IMG/VR virus record: IMGVR_UViG_3300029068_000011
Coordinates: 1 to 14,903 of that record
DNA from: a virus
Taxonomy: Duplodnaviria > Heunggongvirae > Uroviricota > Caudoviricetes
DNA: 14,903 nucleotides
Direction: 5' to 3' (one strand)
Part shown: piece after piece, positions 1,145 through 8,723 of the stretch
Position numbering within the stretch: position 1 is the first letter of the stretch
Layout: each line of letters opens with the position of its first letter
Notes under the pieces: model-generated
Seen by the model: the letters and a program-made list of their open reading frames with translations, nothing else
Told to the model about the DNA's origin: nothing
The model's database searches: none
Translations under genes and position numbers: made by a program

Positions 1145-1333
1145 TCACGAGGACTGAAGTTTCTCGCAATTAAAATTTATCAGTTTTACTTTCTGCTCTC
1201 TGGAAACGCCTGCTTCTTTTTTACCTGAGAGCATTTTTTCGCATTCTGATTTCGTTAGTTTAGATTTTGAATATCTTGTCCAGTTAGTAGGAGTGCCACC
1301 TTCCTTTTCAATTGTAGCGGTAATTTTATACAT
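1145..1333 (-). CDS. ydaC: Small Rac prophage protein of unknown function
   Basis: ORF 1145..1405. Preferred start is ATG 1333 (MYKITATIEKEGG...) because it has a GGAGG Shine-Dalgarno 5 nt upstream; alternative starts at 1345 and 1405 lack one. Overlaps the ralR stop by 8 nt. Confidence 0.6.
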   Translation of the reverse strand: MYKITATIEKEGGTPTNWTRYSKSKLTKSECEKMLSGKKEAGVSREQKVKLINFNCEKLQSS

Positions 1334-5454: not shown

Positions 5455-5625
5455 TTAAAGTTCATGTGCCATCTGGTCTTTTTCGGCACAAGCTTCACTG
5501 CAATATTTTCTCGGTTCGTCTTTTGATAAAATCCCGTGCATGAAGTGAAGCATTCTTTCAATAGCTTTGCTTTCTTCAACGTCTTTTTTGCAAAGGTGGT
5601 AAGCACATTTTATTTTCTTAGTCAT
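5455..5625 (-). CDS. ydaE: Small Cys/His-rich putative zinc-binding protein (56 aa)
   Basis: Not in the supplied ORF track (under 60 aa). My translation: [56 protein letters not shown]. Its ATG overlaps the kilR stop (ATGA); GGAG Shine-Dalgarno upstream. Confidence 0.7.
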   Translation of the reverse strand: MTKKIKCAYHLCKKDVEESKAIERMLHFMHGILSKDEPRKYCSEACAEKDQMAHEL

Positions 5626-5846
5626 CACCATGACTCCGCCTTTACAGGTAAACCATCACGACCGAGGAAGGCTTTAATCATGCGGTCAGTAATGCATGTT
5701 TTTGTGGTCAGGTTACGAATATATAGTTTTCGCTTTTTAATATTGTTTGCCGAGGCAATATATGTCCGGCCTTCATGAAGAACATAATCGCCAGGAGTCA
5801 CACACTGACGTGGTATTTCATCAGTTCCGAAGTGATGTGCAATCAT
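5625..5846 (-). CDS. kilR: KilR cell-division inhibitor (73 aa)
   Basis: ORF 5625..5858; start at ATG 5846 ([14 protein letters not shown]...) with a GGAGA Shine-Dalgarno 5-6 nt upstream; the ATG at 5858 has none. Confidence 0.85.
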
Positions 5847-6020
5847 AATTATCTCCATTTTTACAAATGAACTTTGTTGATGCGGTGCCTGGTGCCTCCA
5901 GGTGACTGCAACCAGTTAACAATTACAGTCGGCTTTCCCACCCAAACCAATAAGGACTAACATGACTTTTAACTGTGCCACGTGCGCTTAGCCGCATTCA
6001 CCGCATCACAAAATTCACTT

Positions 6021-6069: not shown

Positions 6070-6287
6070 AGGACTACACACAGCAATGTCGTTATTTACA
6101 ACCGGAGGCGCACTCCCACCATTTAAATTTAACAGACAAGACCGACTCTTTATGGATATCGGAAATGCGCCTTCGTGTTGTGCCCGGTTTTATTTCACCA
6201 CCTCCGGGCTTCGGTGGTCTCGGCTATACCCCTACAGCGAGAGCTTGTGTTAACATTTCAATACCCTTACAGTTGAGAGTTATTGAT

Positions 6288-6776
6288 ATGTTGGATGTAT
6301 TTACTCCATTGTTGAAACTTTTTGCTAACGAGCCACTCGAAAGACTTATGTATACGATTATCATTTTTGGTCTCACTCTCTGGCTGATACCGAAAGAGTT
6401 TACTGTCGCATTCAATGCTTATACTGAAATACCTTGGCTCTTTCAGATTATCGTTTTTGCCTTTTCTTTCGTGGTCGCCATTTCCTTCTCAAGATTGCGA
6501 GCACATATTCAAAAGCATTATTCATTACTACCAGAGCAACGAGTATTGCTTCGTTTATCTGAGAAAGAAATCGCTGTATTTAAAGATTTCCTTAAAACAG
6601 GAAATCTTATTATCACTTCTCCTTGCCGTAACCCGGTTATGAAAAAATTAGAACGGAAGGGCATCATTCAACATCAGAGTGATAGCGCAAACTGTTCTTA
6701 TTATCTCGTCACCGAAAAATACTCCCATTTTATGAAGTTATTCTGGAACAGCAGGAGTAGACGTTTTAATCGTTAG
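6288..6776 (+). CDS. sieB: Superinfection exclusion protein B (162 aa, membrane protein)
   Basis: ORF 6165..6776; start at ATG 6288 (MLDVFTPLLKLF...) with a GAGAG Shine-Dalgarno about 8 nt upstream. Hydrophobic N-terminal half. Matches recalled SieB. Confidence 0.85.
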   Translation: MLDVFTPLLKLFANEPLERLMYTIIIFGLTLWLIPKEFTVAFNAYTEIPWLFQIIVFAFSFVVAISFSRLRAHIQKHYSLLPEQRVLLRLSEKEIAVFKDFLKTGNLIITSPCRNPVMKKLERKGIIQHQSDSANCSYYLVTEKYSHFMKLFWNSRSRRFNR

Positions 6777-6928
6777 CTTACTGTGTGCTTCTCCAACCAT
6801 CGGCGCGCACCAGTTTCGGTTTTAAATGTTTTGCTTTTGGTATACGTCATGGCAGTGAACGTTCCATCCTGGTTGGGGAACACGCCGCACACCAGGGATT
6901 CGTTGTTGCCGAGGTCGATTTTTTGCAT
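6773..6928 (-). CDS. ydaF: Small Rac prophage protein (51 aa)
   Basis: My translation from ATG 6928: MQKIDLGNNESLVCGVFPNQDGTFTAMTYTKSKTFKTETGARRWLEKHTVS. Its stop (6773-6775) overlaps the sieB stop (6774-6776) on the opposite strand. Confidence 0.65.
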   Translation of the reverse strand: MQKIDLGNNESLVCGVFPNQDGTFTAMTYTKSKTFKTETGARRWLEKHTVS

Positions 6929-6938
6929 TTTGCGAATC

Positions 6939-7073
6939 TCACATCTTGTTGCTACGTATAGCGACTTCTGCCTGCCAGAGATCCCAGTCGTTGCTGCGTA
7001 AAGCCTGCACAGCCTGGTTGTAAGTGATACCGCAACAATCCATCAAATACTGAACTACTTCGTAATGCACCAT
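6939..7073 (-). CDS. ydaG: Small Rac prophage protein (44 aa)
   Basis: My translation from ATG 7073: MVHYEVVQYLMDCCGITYNQAVQALRSNDWDLWQAEVAIRSNKM. AAGGGGA Shine-Dalgarno 8 nt upstream. Confidence 0.65.
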   Translation of the reverse strand: MVHYEVVQYLMDCCGITYNQAVQALRSNDWDLWQAEVAIRSNKM

Positions 7074-7242
7074 CTTATCTATCCCCTTAACGCCGGGTGG
7101 CGGAACTAACTGCTGCACTGCAAAATTTGAATCCCGCCGTCATGTTCATACGCCTCGGGCTGGCTACTTAACCCCTGACCACTGCCTGGTAACTCGAAGT
7201 ATTGCCTGGCGTTCTGTGGGGCGGGGTGGGTGGTATGCTGGA

Positions 7243-7271
7243 ACTATAGGTAATGCCTAATTGATTGTCAA
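7243..7271 (-). promoter_or_regulatory. Leftward sigma70 promoter (pL-like): -35 TTGACA (7266-7271), 17-nt spacer, -10 TATAGT (7243-7248)
   Basis: Hexamers read directly on the minus strand. Operator-like GCCTAAT repeats overlap the spacer and abut the -35. Confidence 0.5.
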
Positions 7272-7308
7272 TAGGCTATGCCTAATGTTTTAAGCGTAAC
7301 CTAATAGG
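7246..7308. promoter_or_regulatory. Left operator cluster: ataggtaatgcctaat (7246-7261), ataggctatgcctaat (7271-7286), cctaatagg (7300-7308)
   Basis: Seen directly. The 16-mer at 7271-7286 is the exact reverse complement of attaggcatagcctat at 7911-7926 on the other side of racR. Confidence 0.5.
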
Positions 7309-7381
7309 TGATGGCGACTGGAGAAAGTGATGGGGGGGTTAAATAACGGAATCCAGGAGTTTTCCGTCAGACCATATAAGT

Positions 7382-7858
7382 TTAAGTTCCAGTTTTTGTG
7401 ATGTTCTGGCTTTTCCGTTCAGATTCTAGAGCTTTCAGATACTTACCCACTTTCATTTCCATCGCTGCTATGTAGGCGCGAACATCGTGGTCAACCCAAT
7501 CTGGTTCTGTAGCATTTCCAGATAACAGGAAAGCTACAATCGCTCTTATTTCATCAGAGGCTGCTTGATAAAGGTTGTTTATATCTAAAAGTTCACTTTT
7601 TGTATCTGGATTGGTGGGGGTTGGTATGGGGTATTCGTTAAGCCCCCAATGCTCTGGACCAACAACATCAGCAAAGAAACGCCATAATTCTGGAAGTTTA
7701 TCTTTACTTATGGAGCCTTTCTTAATCCAGTCATAGATTGATGGTGGTTGGACTTTGAAGTGGCGTGCGACCTCCGCCTTTGATTTGACGGATCCCGATG
7801 CGATTTTTTTGTTAATGGCCTGCTCTATCGCTCGGCCTAAGTCTTTACCACTAAGCAT
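7382..7858 (-). CDS. racR: Rac prophage repressor (cI-like, 158 aa)
   Basis: ORF 7382..7858 with an AGGAGA Shine-Dalgarno upstream; divergent from the cro-like ydaS. Matches recalled RacR. Confidence 0.9.
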   Translation of the reverse strand: MLSGKDLGRAIEQAINKKIASGSVKSKAEVARHFKVQPPSIYDWIKKGSISKDKLPELWRFFADVVGPEHWGLNEYPIPTPTNPDTKSELLDINNLYQAASDEIRAIVAFLLSGNATEPDWVDHDVRAYIAAMEMKVGKYLKALESERKSQNITKTGT

Positions 7859-7885
7859 TGCTTAATATTCTCCTATGCTCATTGC

Positions 7886-7953
7886 ATTAGGCAATCCCTA
7901 CTCTCATTGTATTAGGCATAGCCTATTGACATTTGTATTAGGCGTCGCCTAAT
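7886..7953. promoter_or_regulatory. Right operator cluster: attaggcaat (7886-7895), attaggcatagcctat (7911-7926), 17-bp perfect palindrome attaggcgtcgcctaat (7937-7953)
   Basis: Seen directly in the racR-ydaS divergent intergenic region. The sites overlap the -35, spacer and -10 of the rightward promoter. Confidence 0.55.
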
Positions 7954-7955
7954 AT
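7926..7955 (+). promoter_or_regulatory. Rightward sigma70 promoter (pR-like): -35 TTGACA (7926-7931), 18-nt spacer, -10 TAATAT (7950-7955)
   Basis: Hexamers read directly. ydaS GGAG Shine-Dalgarno at 7970-7973, ATG at 7982. Confidence 0.55.
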
Positions 7956-7981
7956 CTCTGTGTGTTTTTGGAGTTCATTCG

Positions 7982-8278
7982 ATGAAAAAAGAGAACTATT
8001 CATTCAAGCAAGCTTGTGCTGTTGTCGGTGGGCAAACAGCAATGGCTAGGCTTTTAGGTGTATCACCTCCAAGCGTAAATCAATGGATCAAAGGGGTACG
8101 TCAATTGCCTGCCGAGAGATGTCCAGCAATTGAACGTGCAACAAGAGGTGAGGTGCTGTGCGAAGAACTTCGTCCTGATATTGACTGGTCATATTTACGA
8201 CGTTCGGCATGTTGTTCGCAGAATATGTCAGTGAAGCAACTAAATGACAGTAACAAATCCTCATTTGATCATACCTGA
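7982..8278 (+). CDS. ydaS: Cro-like HTH DNA-binding protein (98 aa)
   Basis: ORF 7982..8278. The N-terminus QACAVVGGQTAMARLLGVSPPSVNQW is a typical helix-turn-helix. Matches recalled YdaS. Confidence 0.85.
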   Translation: MKKENYSFKQACAVVGGQTAMARLLGVSPPSVNQWIKGVRQLPAERCPAIERATRGEVLCEELRPDIDWSYLRRSACCSQNMSVKQLNDSNKSSFDHT

Positions 8279-8300
8279 AACATCAAGAGGCAAATGATTC

Positions 8301-8723
8301 ATGAAAATCAAGCATGAGCACATCGAATCGGTGTTGTTTGCCCTGGCAGCCGAAAAAGGGCAGGCATGGGTAGCCAATGCAATTACTGAAGAATATCTGC
8401 GCCAGGGGGGCGGCGAATTGCCCCTGGTTCCAGGCAAGGACTGGAACAATCAGCAGAATATCTATCACCGTTGGTTGAAAGGTGAAACGAATGCGCAAAG
8501 GGAAAAAATTCAGAAGCTGATCCCAGCAATTCTGGCAATCCTTCCGCGCGAGCTGCGTCACCGACTCTGCATCTTCGATACCCTGGAACGCCGTGCATTA
8601 CTGGCGGCGCAGGAAGCGTTAAGTACGGCAATTGATGCGCATGATGATGCAGTCCAAGCCGTTTACCGGAAAGCGCATTTCAGCGGCGGCGGTTCTCCTA
8701 GCGATTCTGTCGTAGTGCATTGA
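8301..8723 (+). CDS. ydaT: YdaT (140 aa; reported toxic on overexpression, RacR-controlled)
   Basis: ORF 8301..8723, 22 nt downstream of the ydaS stop, with an AGAGG Shine-Dalgarno. Confidence 0.85.
   Translation: MKIKHEHIESVLFALAAEKGQAWVANAITEEYLRQGGGELPLVPGKDWNNQQNIYHRWLKGETNAQREKIQKLIPAILAILPRELRHRLCIFDTLERRALLAAQEALSTAIDAHDDAVQAVYRKAHFSGGGSPSDSVVVH

What the first reader, a model, noticed from the sequence alone, without database searches (positions are those of the whole stretch)
7243..7955. Mirror-image operator and promoter architecture flanking racR (lambda OL/OR-like)
The same 16-bp element (ataggctatgcctaat and its exact reverse complement) abuts a TTGACA -35 on both sides of racR. 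It is paired with a second GCCTAAT-type dyad between -35 and -10 of each promoter, including the 17-bp perfect palindrome at 7937-7953. That gives a leftward promoter (TTGACA-17-TATAGT) and a rightward one (TTGACA-18-TAATAT). To my knowledge RacR binding has been studied only in the racR-ydaS intergenic region; the leftward pL-like site would place ydaG-ydaF, and potentially kilR-recET, under direct RacR control.
Basis: partly seen in the sequence, partly recalled or inferred. Interest (0 to 1): 0.5.

Follow-up and report, generated by a model that had tools for sequence, protein, structure and literature searches.

The report
Rac prophage left operator and promoter
The Rac prophage repressor gene racR has the same repressor-binding sites and near-consensus promoter on both sides, so the prophage very probably has a lambda-style left operator and promoter that seems not to have been described and would put the kil, recET and excision genes under direct repressor control.

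Summary
An exact 21-bp inverted repeat (7266-7286 / 7911-7931) carries a RacR-type dyad fused to a TTGACA -35. A second dyad lies between -35 and -10 on each side. All seven matches to ATTAGGC-N3-GCCTAAT (at least 11 of 14) in the 14.9-kb window flank racR; 0.49 are expected by chance.

The right side is already known. PydaS and the RacR operators there were mapped experimentally (PMC9638921).

I found no paper describing the left side (OL1 7245-7261, OL2 7270-7286, promoter TTGACA-17-TATAGT, predicted start about 7236). Comparative evidence for it is strong:
- A dyad pair exactly 25 bp apart, with the same operator/-35/operator/-10 layout, lies downstream of RacR homologs in Mixta, Morganella, Proteus, Klebsiella phage KpF5, Pigmentiphaga and Achromobacter.
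- Four heteroimmune E. coli prophages of two other immunity types lose homology to the window at 7235-7237. The two types examined carry their own motif on both sides of their repressor gene.
- Across 56 distinct variants, 1 of 34 functional OL positions varies, against 42 of 112 other intergenic positions.
- Published RNA-seq shows the leftward genes induced when RacR is depleted, even with racR transcription blocked.

Verdict: a new member of a known kind, matching lambda OL/pL and PL933P of CP-933P. RacR binding and the transcription start are still untested.

The parts
7243..7248 (-). -10 hexamer TATAGT of the predicted leftward promoter pL
   Evidence: Promoter scan, 11 of 12 match with a 17-bp spacer. 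Essentially invariant in 56 variants. Relatives have TAATAT or TACTAT at the same place.
7245..7261 (.). OL1: RacR-type dyad TATAGGTAATGCCTAAT (11 of 14), covering the -10 and spacer of pL
   Evidence: The homologous site scores 12-14 of 14 in relatives.
7266..7271 (-). -35 hexamer TTGACA of pL; its first two T's are the last bases of OL2
   Evidence: The same operator/-35 fusion occurs in all relatives and at the mapped PydaS promoter.
7270..7286 (.). OL2: RacR-type dyad AATAGGCTATGCCTAAT (13 of 14), centre 25 bp from OL1
   Evidence: Variation among 56 variants falls only in its 3-bp spacer.
7289..7313 (.). Weak third site (TTTAAGCGTAACCTAAT, 11 of 14). Only the racR-proximal half is conserved. 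It contains the invariant everted palindrome ACCTAATAGGT at 7300-7310. Role unknown.
   Evidence: The pL-proximal half, 7290-7298, is highly variable, and the site is 19 bp from OL2, not 25.
7235..7237 (-). Predicted pL transcription start (A at 7236, 7 nt after the -10) and left edge of the immunity cassette
   Evidence: Four heteroimmune prophages of two other immunity types match the window well up to 7235 or 7237 (three at 99.2-99.6%, L101 at 87.7% over 7082-7235). They are unrelated beyond that point.
7119..7234 (-). Leader of the predicted pL transcript upstream of ydaG, with a C-rich, G-poor 5' end
   Evidence: No Rfam match and no unusual folding (z = 0.5).
7382..7858 (-). racR, the repressor gene enclosed by the two operator clusters
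   Evidence: Only a weak HTH hit in Pfam and no Peptidase_S24 domain.
7850..7866 (.). Published operator at the racR start codon (ACTAAGCATTGCTTAAT, 11 of 14)
   Evidence: PMC9638921.
7886..7902 (.). OR-side dyad ATTAGGCAATCCCTACT (12 of 14), counterpart of the relatives' -35-proximal operator
7911..7927 (.). OR2: ATTAGGCATAGCCTATT (13 of 14), mirror copy of OL2
   Evidence: published as O2.
7926..7931 (+). -35 TTGACA of PydaS (pR)
   Evidence: Mapped by primer extension in PMC9638921.
7937..7953 (.). OR1: ATTAGGCGTCGCCTAAT (14 of 14), perfect palindrome between the -35 and -10 of PydaS
   Evidence: RacR protects this region at the lowest protein concentration.
7950..7955 (+). -10 TAATAT of PydaS
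   Evidence: Replacing it abolished promoter activity (PMC9638921).
7982..8278 (+). ydaS (Cro analogue), first gene of the rightward operon
8295..8312 (.). YdaT-box ATGATTCATGAAAATCAA. Its first base is the right edge of the immunity cassette.
   Evidence: Homology to heteroimmune prophages resumes at 8295. Box defined in PMC11879457.

Best explanation
The left element is the left operator and promoter (OL/pL) of the Rac immunity region.

Proposed mechanism:
- RacR dimers bind two 17-bp dyads, OL2 at 7270-7286 and OL1 at 7245-7261, whose centres are 25 bp apart.
- OL2 supplies the first two bases of the -35 TTGACA. OL1 fills the spacer and overlaps the -10 TATAGT.
- Occupied operators therefore exclude RNA polymerase from a near-consensus sigma-70 promoter that fires leftward from about 7236.
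- When RacR falls, pL transcribes ydaG and ydaF and, subject to Rho, continues to kilR, ydaE, racC, recE, recT, ralR, xisR and intR.
- The same layout, with the same motif, forms the experimentally mapped PydaS/OR1-OR2 on the other side of racR. RacR therefore shuts both early operons at once.

Status of each step:
- Shown here: the sites, their conservation, their 25-bp spacing, their place inside the immunity cassette, and the same layout in other immunity types.
- Shown by others: RacR recognises this motif at OR, and the left genes are derepressed on RacR depletion.
- Inferred: RacR occupancy of OL, the start site, and cooperativity between the sites.
For: 1. Motif statistics: seven sites at 11 of 14 or better, all flanking racR, against 0.49 expected. 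No simulated sequence had a pair 24-26 bp apart.
2. pL scores 11 of 12 against the sigma-70 consensus and has the same operator/promoter interleaving as PydaS. PydaS was mapped by primer extension and -10 mutagenesis, and RacR footprints on it.
3. RacR homologs at 56-75% identity each carry a downstream dyad pair exactly 25 bp apart in the arrangement [..CCTATT]GACA-N8-[ATTAGGCnnnGCCTAAT]AT. Co-oriented ORFs lie beyond it in the enterobacterial loci and in phage KpF5. The hosts are Mixta, Morganella, Proteus, Klebsiella phage KpF5, Pigmentiphaga and Achromobacter.
4. Across 56 distinct variants, 1 of 34 OL half-site or hexamer positions varies, against 42 of 112 other positions between 7236 and the racR stop codon (Fisher p = 2.8e-5). 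This is at least as tight as the footprinted OR sites, 7 of 56 against 23 of 67.
5. Four heteroimmune prophages of two other immunity types lose homology at 7235-7237, so pL and OL travel with the repressor gene. Both other immunity types have their own motif on both sides in the same layout.
6. Cascade roadblocks at racR +3 and +58 cut racR RNA 11- to 20-fold, yet ydaG, kilR, ydaE, racC, recE, recT, ralR, xisR and intR rise. Read-through from the racR promoters cannot explain this. Depletion of RacR by the C protein raised ydaF, ydaG, ydaE and racC about 40-fold and kilR more than 70-fold.
7. The analogous PL933P/OL1-3 in CP-933P is repressed by PaaR2 and YdaS.
Against: - There is no direct RacR binding, footprint, ChIP or start-site evidence for the left site in any paper I could read.
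- OL1 is a weaker match in E. coli Rac (11 of 14) than in relatives.
- Induction of the left genes after RacR loss could be partly indirect, through YdaS or YdaT or through excision and copy-number change.
- sieB lies antisense between ydaF and kilR, and Rho/NusG silences kilR, so how far a pL transcript reaches is uncertain.
- Klebsiella sp. R390 (L010) showed no clear OL pair within the DNA held.
Confidence: 0.8

Rival explanations
1. The left dyads are mainly auxiliary anchoring sites. The RacR octamer would bridge OL and OR into a loop of about 0.65 kb around racR, sharpening repression of PydaS and racR autoregulation, as with lambda OL-OR looping or the phage 186 flanking sites. Promoter control on the left would be secondary or absent.
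For: - RacR runs as an octamer on size exclusion (151 kDa; PMC11014345).
- PaaR2 of CP-933P is also octameric, and looping was proposed there.
- OL2 and OR2 centres are 641 bp apart and OL1 and OR1 centres 692 bp apart (coordinates).
Against: - The dyads are interleaved with an 11 of 12 promoter whose hexamers are as conserved as the half-sites, in E. coli and in distant relatives.
- The OL-OR distance is not conserved. Cargo inserted in KpF5 and Pigmentiphaga adds roughly 1.1-1.3 kb.
- This reading is compatible with the main explanation rather than exclusive of it. It is a rival only in its 'no promoter' form.
Confidence: 0.1
2. The left genes are controlled not from a RacR-repressed promoter but by read-through from the racR promoters. 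That read-through is normally stopped by the Rho-dependent terminator trac inside racR. On this view the repeat downstream of racR is incidental.
For: A Rho-dependent terminator within racR protects cells from kil expression, and Rho inhibition induces Rac genes (PMC4150792).
Against: - Cascade roadblocks near the racR start lower racR RNA 11- to 20-fold while the downstream genes rise.
- The conservation, spacing and cassette-boundary evidence is left unexplained.
- The two routes can coexist, as with lambda timm plus pL.
Confidence: 0.05
3. The repeat is a by-product of recombination, either a module junction or a recent inverted duplication or gene conversion between the two sides of racR. 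On this view it has no regulatory role on the left, or it acts as a terminator hairpin.
For: - The 21-bp identity is exact only in this variant.
- E. coli Rac has an extra 26-bp operator/-35 unit at OR compared with relatives, which hints at copying between the sides.
- The scan flags a hairpin at 7272-7284 followed by ATGTTTTAAG on the + strand.
Against: - The left pair is present and conserved in genera where the flanking DNA is unrelated.
- The hairpin has only 5 pairs with 3 G-C. On the racR strand no T-run follows it.
- The cassette junction is at 7235-7237, outside the dyads, not within them.
Confidence: 0.05

Closest known systems
Bacteriophage lambda OL/pL and OR/pR with CI repressor
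   Same: - The repressor gene lies between two operator clusters that share one dyad motif.
- The sites are 17 bp with centres about 24-26 bp apart.
- The operators overlap the -35 and -10 of outward-facing early promoters.
- The left operon carries kil, recombination and int/xis genes.
- The repressor forms an octamer in solution (RacR: PMC11014345).
- The racR transcript is leaderless, like cI (PMC9638921).
   Different: - RacR has no Peptidase_S24 autocleavage domain, so induction is probably not by RecA-stimulated cleavage.
- There are two clear dyads at OL, not three, and four at OR in E. coli Rac.
- OL and OR are only about 0.65 kb apart, against about 2.4 kb in lambda (figure from general knowledge).
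- The -35 is built from the operator end itself.
- No N or nut system is evident downstream of pL.
PL933P / OL1-OL3 of cryptic prophage CP-933P (PaaR2, YdaS, YdaT; PMC8630535)
   Same: - It is a sibling lambdoid prophage with a YdaS/YdaT right operon.
- Its authors looked downstream of the repressor operon and found a promoter with the same hexamers as PR933P, plus operators like those at OR.
- They showed repression by the repressor and by YdaS in reporter assays.
- The repressor is octameric and looping was proposed.
   Different: - The repressor and operator motif differ (consensus GTTTAGTAA palindromes).
- A toxin-antitoxin pair lies between the repressor gene and PL.
- Its evidence is experimental, whereas the Rac left site is so far only computational.
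PydaS / O1-O3 of Rac itself (PMC9638921)
   Same: It has the same motif, the same TTGACA -35 fused to a dyad, and a second dyad between -35 and -10. It is the mirror image of the left element.
   Different: It is experimentally mapped by primer extension, -10 mutagenesis and a RacR DNase I footprint. It contains additional dyads that overlap the racR promoters and start codon.
Short Gifsy-type prophage repressors controlled by antirepressors (GfoR/GtgR group; PMC3121763)
   Same: That paper lists RacR in this group of repressors of about 150 aa that are too small for self-cleavage.
   Different: No antirepressor for RacR has been identified here, and operator layouts were not compared.

Membership tests
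Lambdoid immunity region with paired left and right operators (OL/pL and OR/pR) | The repressor gene is flanked on both sides by clusters of one shared dyad-symmetric motif | tested here: met
   Seven sites at 11 of 14 or better, all at 7245-7305 and 7850-7953, against 0.49 expected. Exact 21-bp inverted repeat.
Lambdoid immunity region with paired left and right operators (OL/pL and OR/pR) | The operators overlap the -35 and -10 of outward-facing sigma-70 promoters on both sides | tested here: met
   Sequence level only: pL scores 11 of 12 and pR 10 of 12. pR is confirmed experimentally in PMC9638921. The pL start site is unmapped.
Lambdoid immunity region with paired left and right operators (OL/pL and OR/pR) | Adjacent dyads are spaced about 2.3-2.5 helical turns apart, allowing pairwise cooperative binding | tested here: met
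   OL1-OL2 centres are 25 bp apart and OR1-OR2 centres 26 bp. The spacing is exactly 25 bp in all six relatives that have an OL pair. Cooperativity itself was not tested.
Lambdoid immunity region with paired left and right operators (OL/pL and OR/pR) | The operators belong to the exchangeable immunity cassette, and heteroimmune relatives carry a different motif on both sides | tested here: met
   Homology breaks at 7235-7237 and 8295. Type 2 has the motif ATGTACT-N5-AGTNCA and type 3 the motif TACCYATRGGTA, each on both sides of its own repressor gene.
Lambdoid immunity region with paired left and right operators (OL/pL and OR/pR) | The repressor physically binds the left operators | not testable with these tools
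   No EMSA, footprint or ChIP covering 7230-7320 was found. The published substrates cover only the racR-ydaS spacer and the 5' end of racR.
Lambdoid immunity region with paired left and right operators (OL/pL and OR/pR) | The left operon is derepressed when the repressor is removed | not testable with these tools
   Published RNA-seq is consistent: about 40- to more than 70-fold for ydaF, ydaG, ydaE, racC and kilR. The same genes plus recE, recT, ralR, xisR and intR rise under CRISPRi of racR. Direct and indirect effects were not separated.
Lambdoid immunity region with paired left and right operators (OL/pL and OR/pR) | Long-range OL-OR looping through a repressor octamer | not testable with these tools
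   RacR is octameric by size exclusion. No looping assay exists.
LexA/CI-type self-cleaving repressors | A C-terminal Peptidase_S24 domain | tested here: not met
   RacR has only a weak HTH hit and no S24 domain. The homologs in Pigmentiphaga and Achromobacter, with the same N-terminal domain and the same operators, do carry Peptidase_S24 (E = 4e-15 and 1e-13).
Intrinsic (Rho-independent) terminator downstream of racR | A G+C-rich stem followed by a U-run on the transcribed strand | tested here: not met
   The only hairpin, at 7272-7284, is the OL2 dyad itself, with 5 pairs and 3 G-C. Its T-rich tail is on the + strand, not the racR strand.
Known structured RNA in the pL leader (nut/put-like or other Rfam family) | A match to a curated covariance model or unusually stable folding | tested here: not met
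   No Rfam match at E up to 1 in 6700-8400. The leader folds no better than shuffles (z = 0.5).

The most novel reading that the evidence does not exclude
RacR octamers bridge OL1-OL2 and the OR dyads into a loop of only about 0.65 kb that encloses the repressor's own gene. One protein complex would then shut pL and PydaS together and set racR autoregulation. pL, rather than YdaS, would be the direct route by which RacR loss switches on kilR, recET and xisR/intR and so triggers Rac excision. This would revise two current readings: that the octamer corresponds to four dyads in the racR-ydaS spacer, and that excision is driven by YdaS.
Probability: 0.35. Interest if true: 0.55.

Novelty: new member of a known kind. 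Interest (0 to 1): 0.38.

Why it matters
Recent work on Rac (2017-2026) treats the racR-ydaS spacer as the whole switch. It explains the RacR octamer by four dyads there and attributes prophage excision to YdaS.

A RacR-controlled pL would give a direct, testable link from the repressor to several known behaviours:
- the kilR division inhibitor;
- the RecET recombination system, meaning the classical 'recombination activation' and zygotic induction phenotypes;
- the excision genes.

It would also provide the second anchor needed for a lambda-like repression loop. In practice it tells experimenters which 90 bp to include in binding, reporter and ChIP assays.

The result is expected for a lambdoid prophage and has a demonstrated counterpart in CP-933P. 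Its value is in completing a model, not in overturning one.

Tried and rejected
- Rfam scan of the whole window and a permissive scan of 6700-8400 found nothing near the element, only RalA at 1149-1327.
- Folding of the predicted pL leader showed no unusual structure, so I dropped the idea of a put- or nut-like RNA.
- The terminator reading of the OL2 hairpin was rejected: the stem is weak and the T-run is on the wrong strand.
- I looked for operator covariation in more distant homologs (Pseudomonas phages, 38-52% identity in the N-terminal domain). The upstream sites are recognisable but I found no clear downstream pair within 2.5 kb, so this gives no evidence either way.
- Klebsiella sp. R390 (L010) likewise gave no clear OL pair.
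- Attempts to read Conter et al. 1996 and Cardinale et al. 2008 failed because they are not held. The older sbcA literature could not be searched.
- One literature search was badly framed and returned nothing relevant.
- I considered that the 21-bp identity itself signals recent gene conversion. It is 20 of 21 in K-12 and lower in an O157 variant. Functional constraint on 18 of the 21 positions explains most of it.
Full report
**What the window is.** The region 6700-8400 is 100% identical to a prophage of E. coli ETEC1730 and 98.4% identical to the Rac prophage of K-12.

| Gene | Coordinates | Strand |
|---|---|---|
| kilR | about 5625-5858 | - |
| sieB | 6165-6776 | + |
| ydaF | 6773-6928 | - |
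| ydaG | about 6939-7118 | - |
| racR | 7382-7858 | - |
| ydaS | 7982-8278 | + |
| ydaT | 8301-8723 | + |

**Check of the observation.**
- The 16-mer ATAGGCTATGCCTAAT lies at 7271-7286, and its exact reverse complement lies at 7911-7926.
- The exact inverted repeat is really 21 bp (7266-7286 / 7911-7931) and includes both TTGACA hexamers.
- 7937-7953 is a perfect 8+1+8 palindrome.
- The consensus scan returns a leftward TTGACA-17-TATAGT (11 of 12) and a rightward TTGACA-18-TAATAT (10 of 12). These are the only strong promoter-like sites near racR.
- Scoring every 17-mer of the window against ATTAGGC-N3-GCCTAAT gives seven sites at 11 of 14 or better. Three lie at 7245-7305 and four at 7850-7953. 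Simulated sequence with the same dinucleotide content gave 0.49 on average, never more than 3, and never two sites 24-26 bp apart in 300 trials.
- The exact 21-bp identity is a property of this variant only. It is 20 of 21 in K-12 and lower in an O157 variant.

**What is already known.** The right-hand half is established.
- Wisniewska et al. (PMC9638921) mapped a single ydaS start site by primer extension and abolished the promoter by replacing TAATAT.
- They footprinted RacR on the spacer, with the strongest protection at the ydaS promoter. They derived the half-site ATTAGGC and operators O1-O3.
- Krishnamurthi et al. (PMC5700373) showed RacR binding to the same spacer by EMSA and ChIP-qPCR.
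- RacR is octameric by size exclusion. The authors relate this to four inverted repeats in the spacer (PMC11014345).

None of these papers mentions a site or promoter downstream of racR. The same is true of the Jobling letter, the 2025 YdaT paper and the 2026 CRISPRi preprint.

In the sibling prophage CP-933P, Jurenas et al. (PMC8630535) looked for exactly this. They found PL933P with OL1-3 and showed that PaaR2 and YdaS repress it.

**Anatomy of the left element.** Read in the direction of leftward transcription, the sequence is:

ATTAGGCATAGCCTAT**TGACA**ATCA ATTAGGCATTACC**TATAGT** TCCAGCA

- OL2 (7286-7270, 13 of 14) ends in the two T's that begin the -35.
- OL1 (7261-7245, 11 of 14) fills the spacer and overlaps the -10.
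- The A at 7236 is 7 nt beyond the -10.
- This is the same interleaving as at the mapped PydaS promoter.

**Conservation in distant relatives.** A genome-collection search with RacR returned homologs at 56-75% identity. A phage-collection search added the isolated Klebsiella phage KpF5.
- Every locus with the RacR-type recognition helix has dyads at about -68, -43 and -8 upstream of the gene.
- All but two also have a pair of dyads exactly 25 bp apart downstream of the gene. In each the arrangement is [..GCCTATT]GACA-N8-[ATTAGGCnnnGCCTAAT]AT. This holds for Mixta, Morganella, Proteus, Achromobacter, Pigmentiphaga and KpF5.
- The exceptions are Klebsiella sp. R390 and the more distant Pseudomonas phages.
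- In Pigmentiphaga and KpF5 the pair sits 1.2-1.4 kb beyond the stop codon, after cargo genes. This resembles rexAB between cI and OL in lambda.
- ORFs beyond the pair run in the pL direction in the enterobacterial relatives and in KpF5. The two betaproteobacterial loci are GC-rich, and their ORF lists are uninformative.
- The two betaproteobacterial homologs have the same N-terminal domain and the same operators but a Peptidase_S24 C-terminal domain. RacR has none. The operator layout therefore goes with the DNA-binding domain and predates the change of C-terminal domain.

**Constraint within E. coli.** I took 84 loci, giving 56 distinct sequences, and counted variable columns.

| Region | Half-site and hexamer positions that vary | Other positions that vary | Fisher p |
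|---|---|---|---|
| OL side, 7236 to the racR stop codon | 1 of 34 | 42 of 112 | 2.8e-5 |
| OR side (footprinted sites) | 7 of 56 | 23 of 67 | 0.006 |

- Variation within OL2 falls in its 3-bp spacer.
- Most other variation lies between the operators and just downstream of the -10.
- The sequences are related, so the p-values are approximate.

**Immunity-cassette boundaries.**
- Four prophages carry different repressor/Cro pairs but share Rac-like flanks. They lose similarity to the window at 7235 (AR_0372, 98202, 7_56_38A) or at 7237 (NT1F31).
- Up to that point, three of them are 99.2-99.6% identical to the window. The fourth, 7_56_38A, is 87.7% identical over 7082-7235.
- Three of them resume similarity at 8295.
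- The left edge is therefore the predicted +1 of pL.
- The right edge is the first base of the published YdaT-box at 8295-8312.
- Both foreign cassettes carry their own motif on both sides of their repressor gene, with a proximal copy abutting a -35-like hexamer and a distal copy before the -10. The motifs are ATGTACT-N5-AGTNCA and TACCYATRGGTA.
- The mirrored layout is thus a general property of this prophage group, and pL and OL co-segregate with the repressor.

**Functional evidence from the literature.**
- Lowering RacR with the C protein raised ydaF, ydaG, ydaE and racC about 40-fold. It raised ydaC, kilR and ralA more than 70-fold (PMC6765115).
- In the 2026 preprint, Cascade bound at racR +3 or +58 lowered racR RNA 20- and 11-fold. 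Even so, ydaG, kilR, ydaE, racC, recE, recT, ralR, xisR and intR rose.
- Those genes lie downstream of racR on the same strand. A roadblock at the start of racR would have reduced read-through, not increased it. The result calls for an independent leftward promoter that responds to RacR.
- A Rho-dependent terminator inside racR is known to stop read-through towards kil in the lysogen (PMC4150792). That is a second layer of control, not an alternative.

**Most likely mechanism.** RacR dimers occupy OL2 and OL1, probably cooperatively given the 25-bp spacing, and exclude RNA polymerase from pL. The same protein occupies OR1 and OR2 at PydaS. Loss of RacR opens both early operons.
- Shown here or by others: the sites, their conservation, their membership of the cassette, RacR recognition of the motif at OR, and derepression of the left genes.
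- Inferred: occupancy of OL, the start site at about 7236, cooperativity, and any OL-OR loop.
- I put 0.8 on the OL/pL reading.
- I put about 0.35 on the further claim that octameric RacR loops OL to OR (centres 641-692 bp apart) and that pL, rather than YdaS, is the main route to excision-gene expression.

**Rivals.**
- An 'anchor-only' role for the left dyads is unlikely, because the promoter hexamers are as conserved as the half-sites.
- Pure read-through control is contradicted by the CRISPRi data.
- A recombination scar or terminator reading fails for three reasons. The pair is conserved where the flanks are unrelated. The junction lies outside the dyads. The hairpin is weak and its T-run is on the wrong strand.

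**Verdict.** The right half is already known. The left half is, as far as the accessible literature shows, an undescribed but expected member of a well-known kind. Its closest demonstrated counterpart is PL933P of CP-933P. Interest is moderate. It would not surprise a phage geneticist, but it fills a gap that current Rac papers leave open and it is immediately testable.

Noticed in passing
window 7886-7936, compared with L008, L009, L011, L012, L013 and L096: E. coli Rac has four dyads upstream of racR (-95, -69, -44, -8), whereas all other genera have three. The extra unit of about 26 bp (ATTAGGCATAGCCTATTGACA plus 5 bp) is the one identical to OL2/-35. The older -35-proximal dyad (7886-7902) has lost its TTGAC. 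This suggests an OL2-type operator/-35 unit was copied into OR in the Rac lineage.
   Followed up: partly
window 7299-7313: There is a third invariant block downstream of racR, AACCTAATAGGTGATGG. It contains an everted palindrome ACCTA-A-TAGGT made of two outward-facing half-sites. The adjacent half of the nominal third dyad (7290-7298) is highly variable. Its function is unknown.
   Followed up: partly
window 7082-7238 (minus strand = start of the predicted pL transcript): This 155-bp segment matches thousands of E. coli genomes at 85-89% identity with nothing annotated over it. Its 5' end on the transcript, AUACCACCCACCCCGCCCCACAGAACGCC, is strongly C-rich and G-poor, like a Rho-loading site. 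It has no Rfam match and no special fold. This may relate to Rho/NusG silencing of kilR.
   Followed up: partly
window 8295-8312: The right edge of the exchangeable immunity cassette (homology to heteroimmune prophages resumes at 8295) is the first base of the published YdaT-box ATGATTCATGAAAATCAA at the ydaT start codon. The heteroimmune cassette supplies a T there, giving the perfect TTGATT-N6-AATCAA.
   Followed up: partly
L012 2501-3403 and L013 2501-3595: Betaproteobacterial repressors (Pigmentiphaga, Achromobacter) share 74-75% identity with the RacR DNA-binding domain and use the same operators. They carry a Peptidase_S24 self-cleavage domain instead of the RacR C-terminal domain, which indicates a domain swap around one DNA-binding module.
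   Followed up: partly
L096 2978-4370 (Klebsiella phage KpF5) and L012 3407-4612: Cargo is inserted between the repressor gene and the OL pair: a DUF450 protein in KpF5 and an unexamined 1.2-kb stretch in Pigmentiphaga. The position corresponds to rexAB in lambda and paaA2-parE2 in CP-933P.
   Followed up: no
window 1149-1327 (+): RalA antitoxin sRNA, a full-length Rfam RF02694 match at 218 bits.
   Followed up: no
window 6165-6776 (+): sieB lies on the opposite strand between ydaF and kilR, so any pL transcript that reaches kilR must run antisense through sieB.
   Followed up: no
window 6942-7118 (-): In this variant, and in AR_0372, the ydaG reading frame is 59 codons, against 44 in K-12. 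It gives a marginal Pfam UBA_4 hit (E = 7e-5, 23 bits against a cut-off of 21.8).
   Followed up: no
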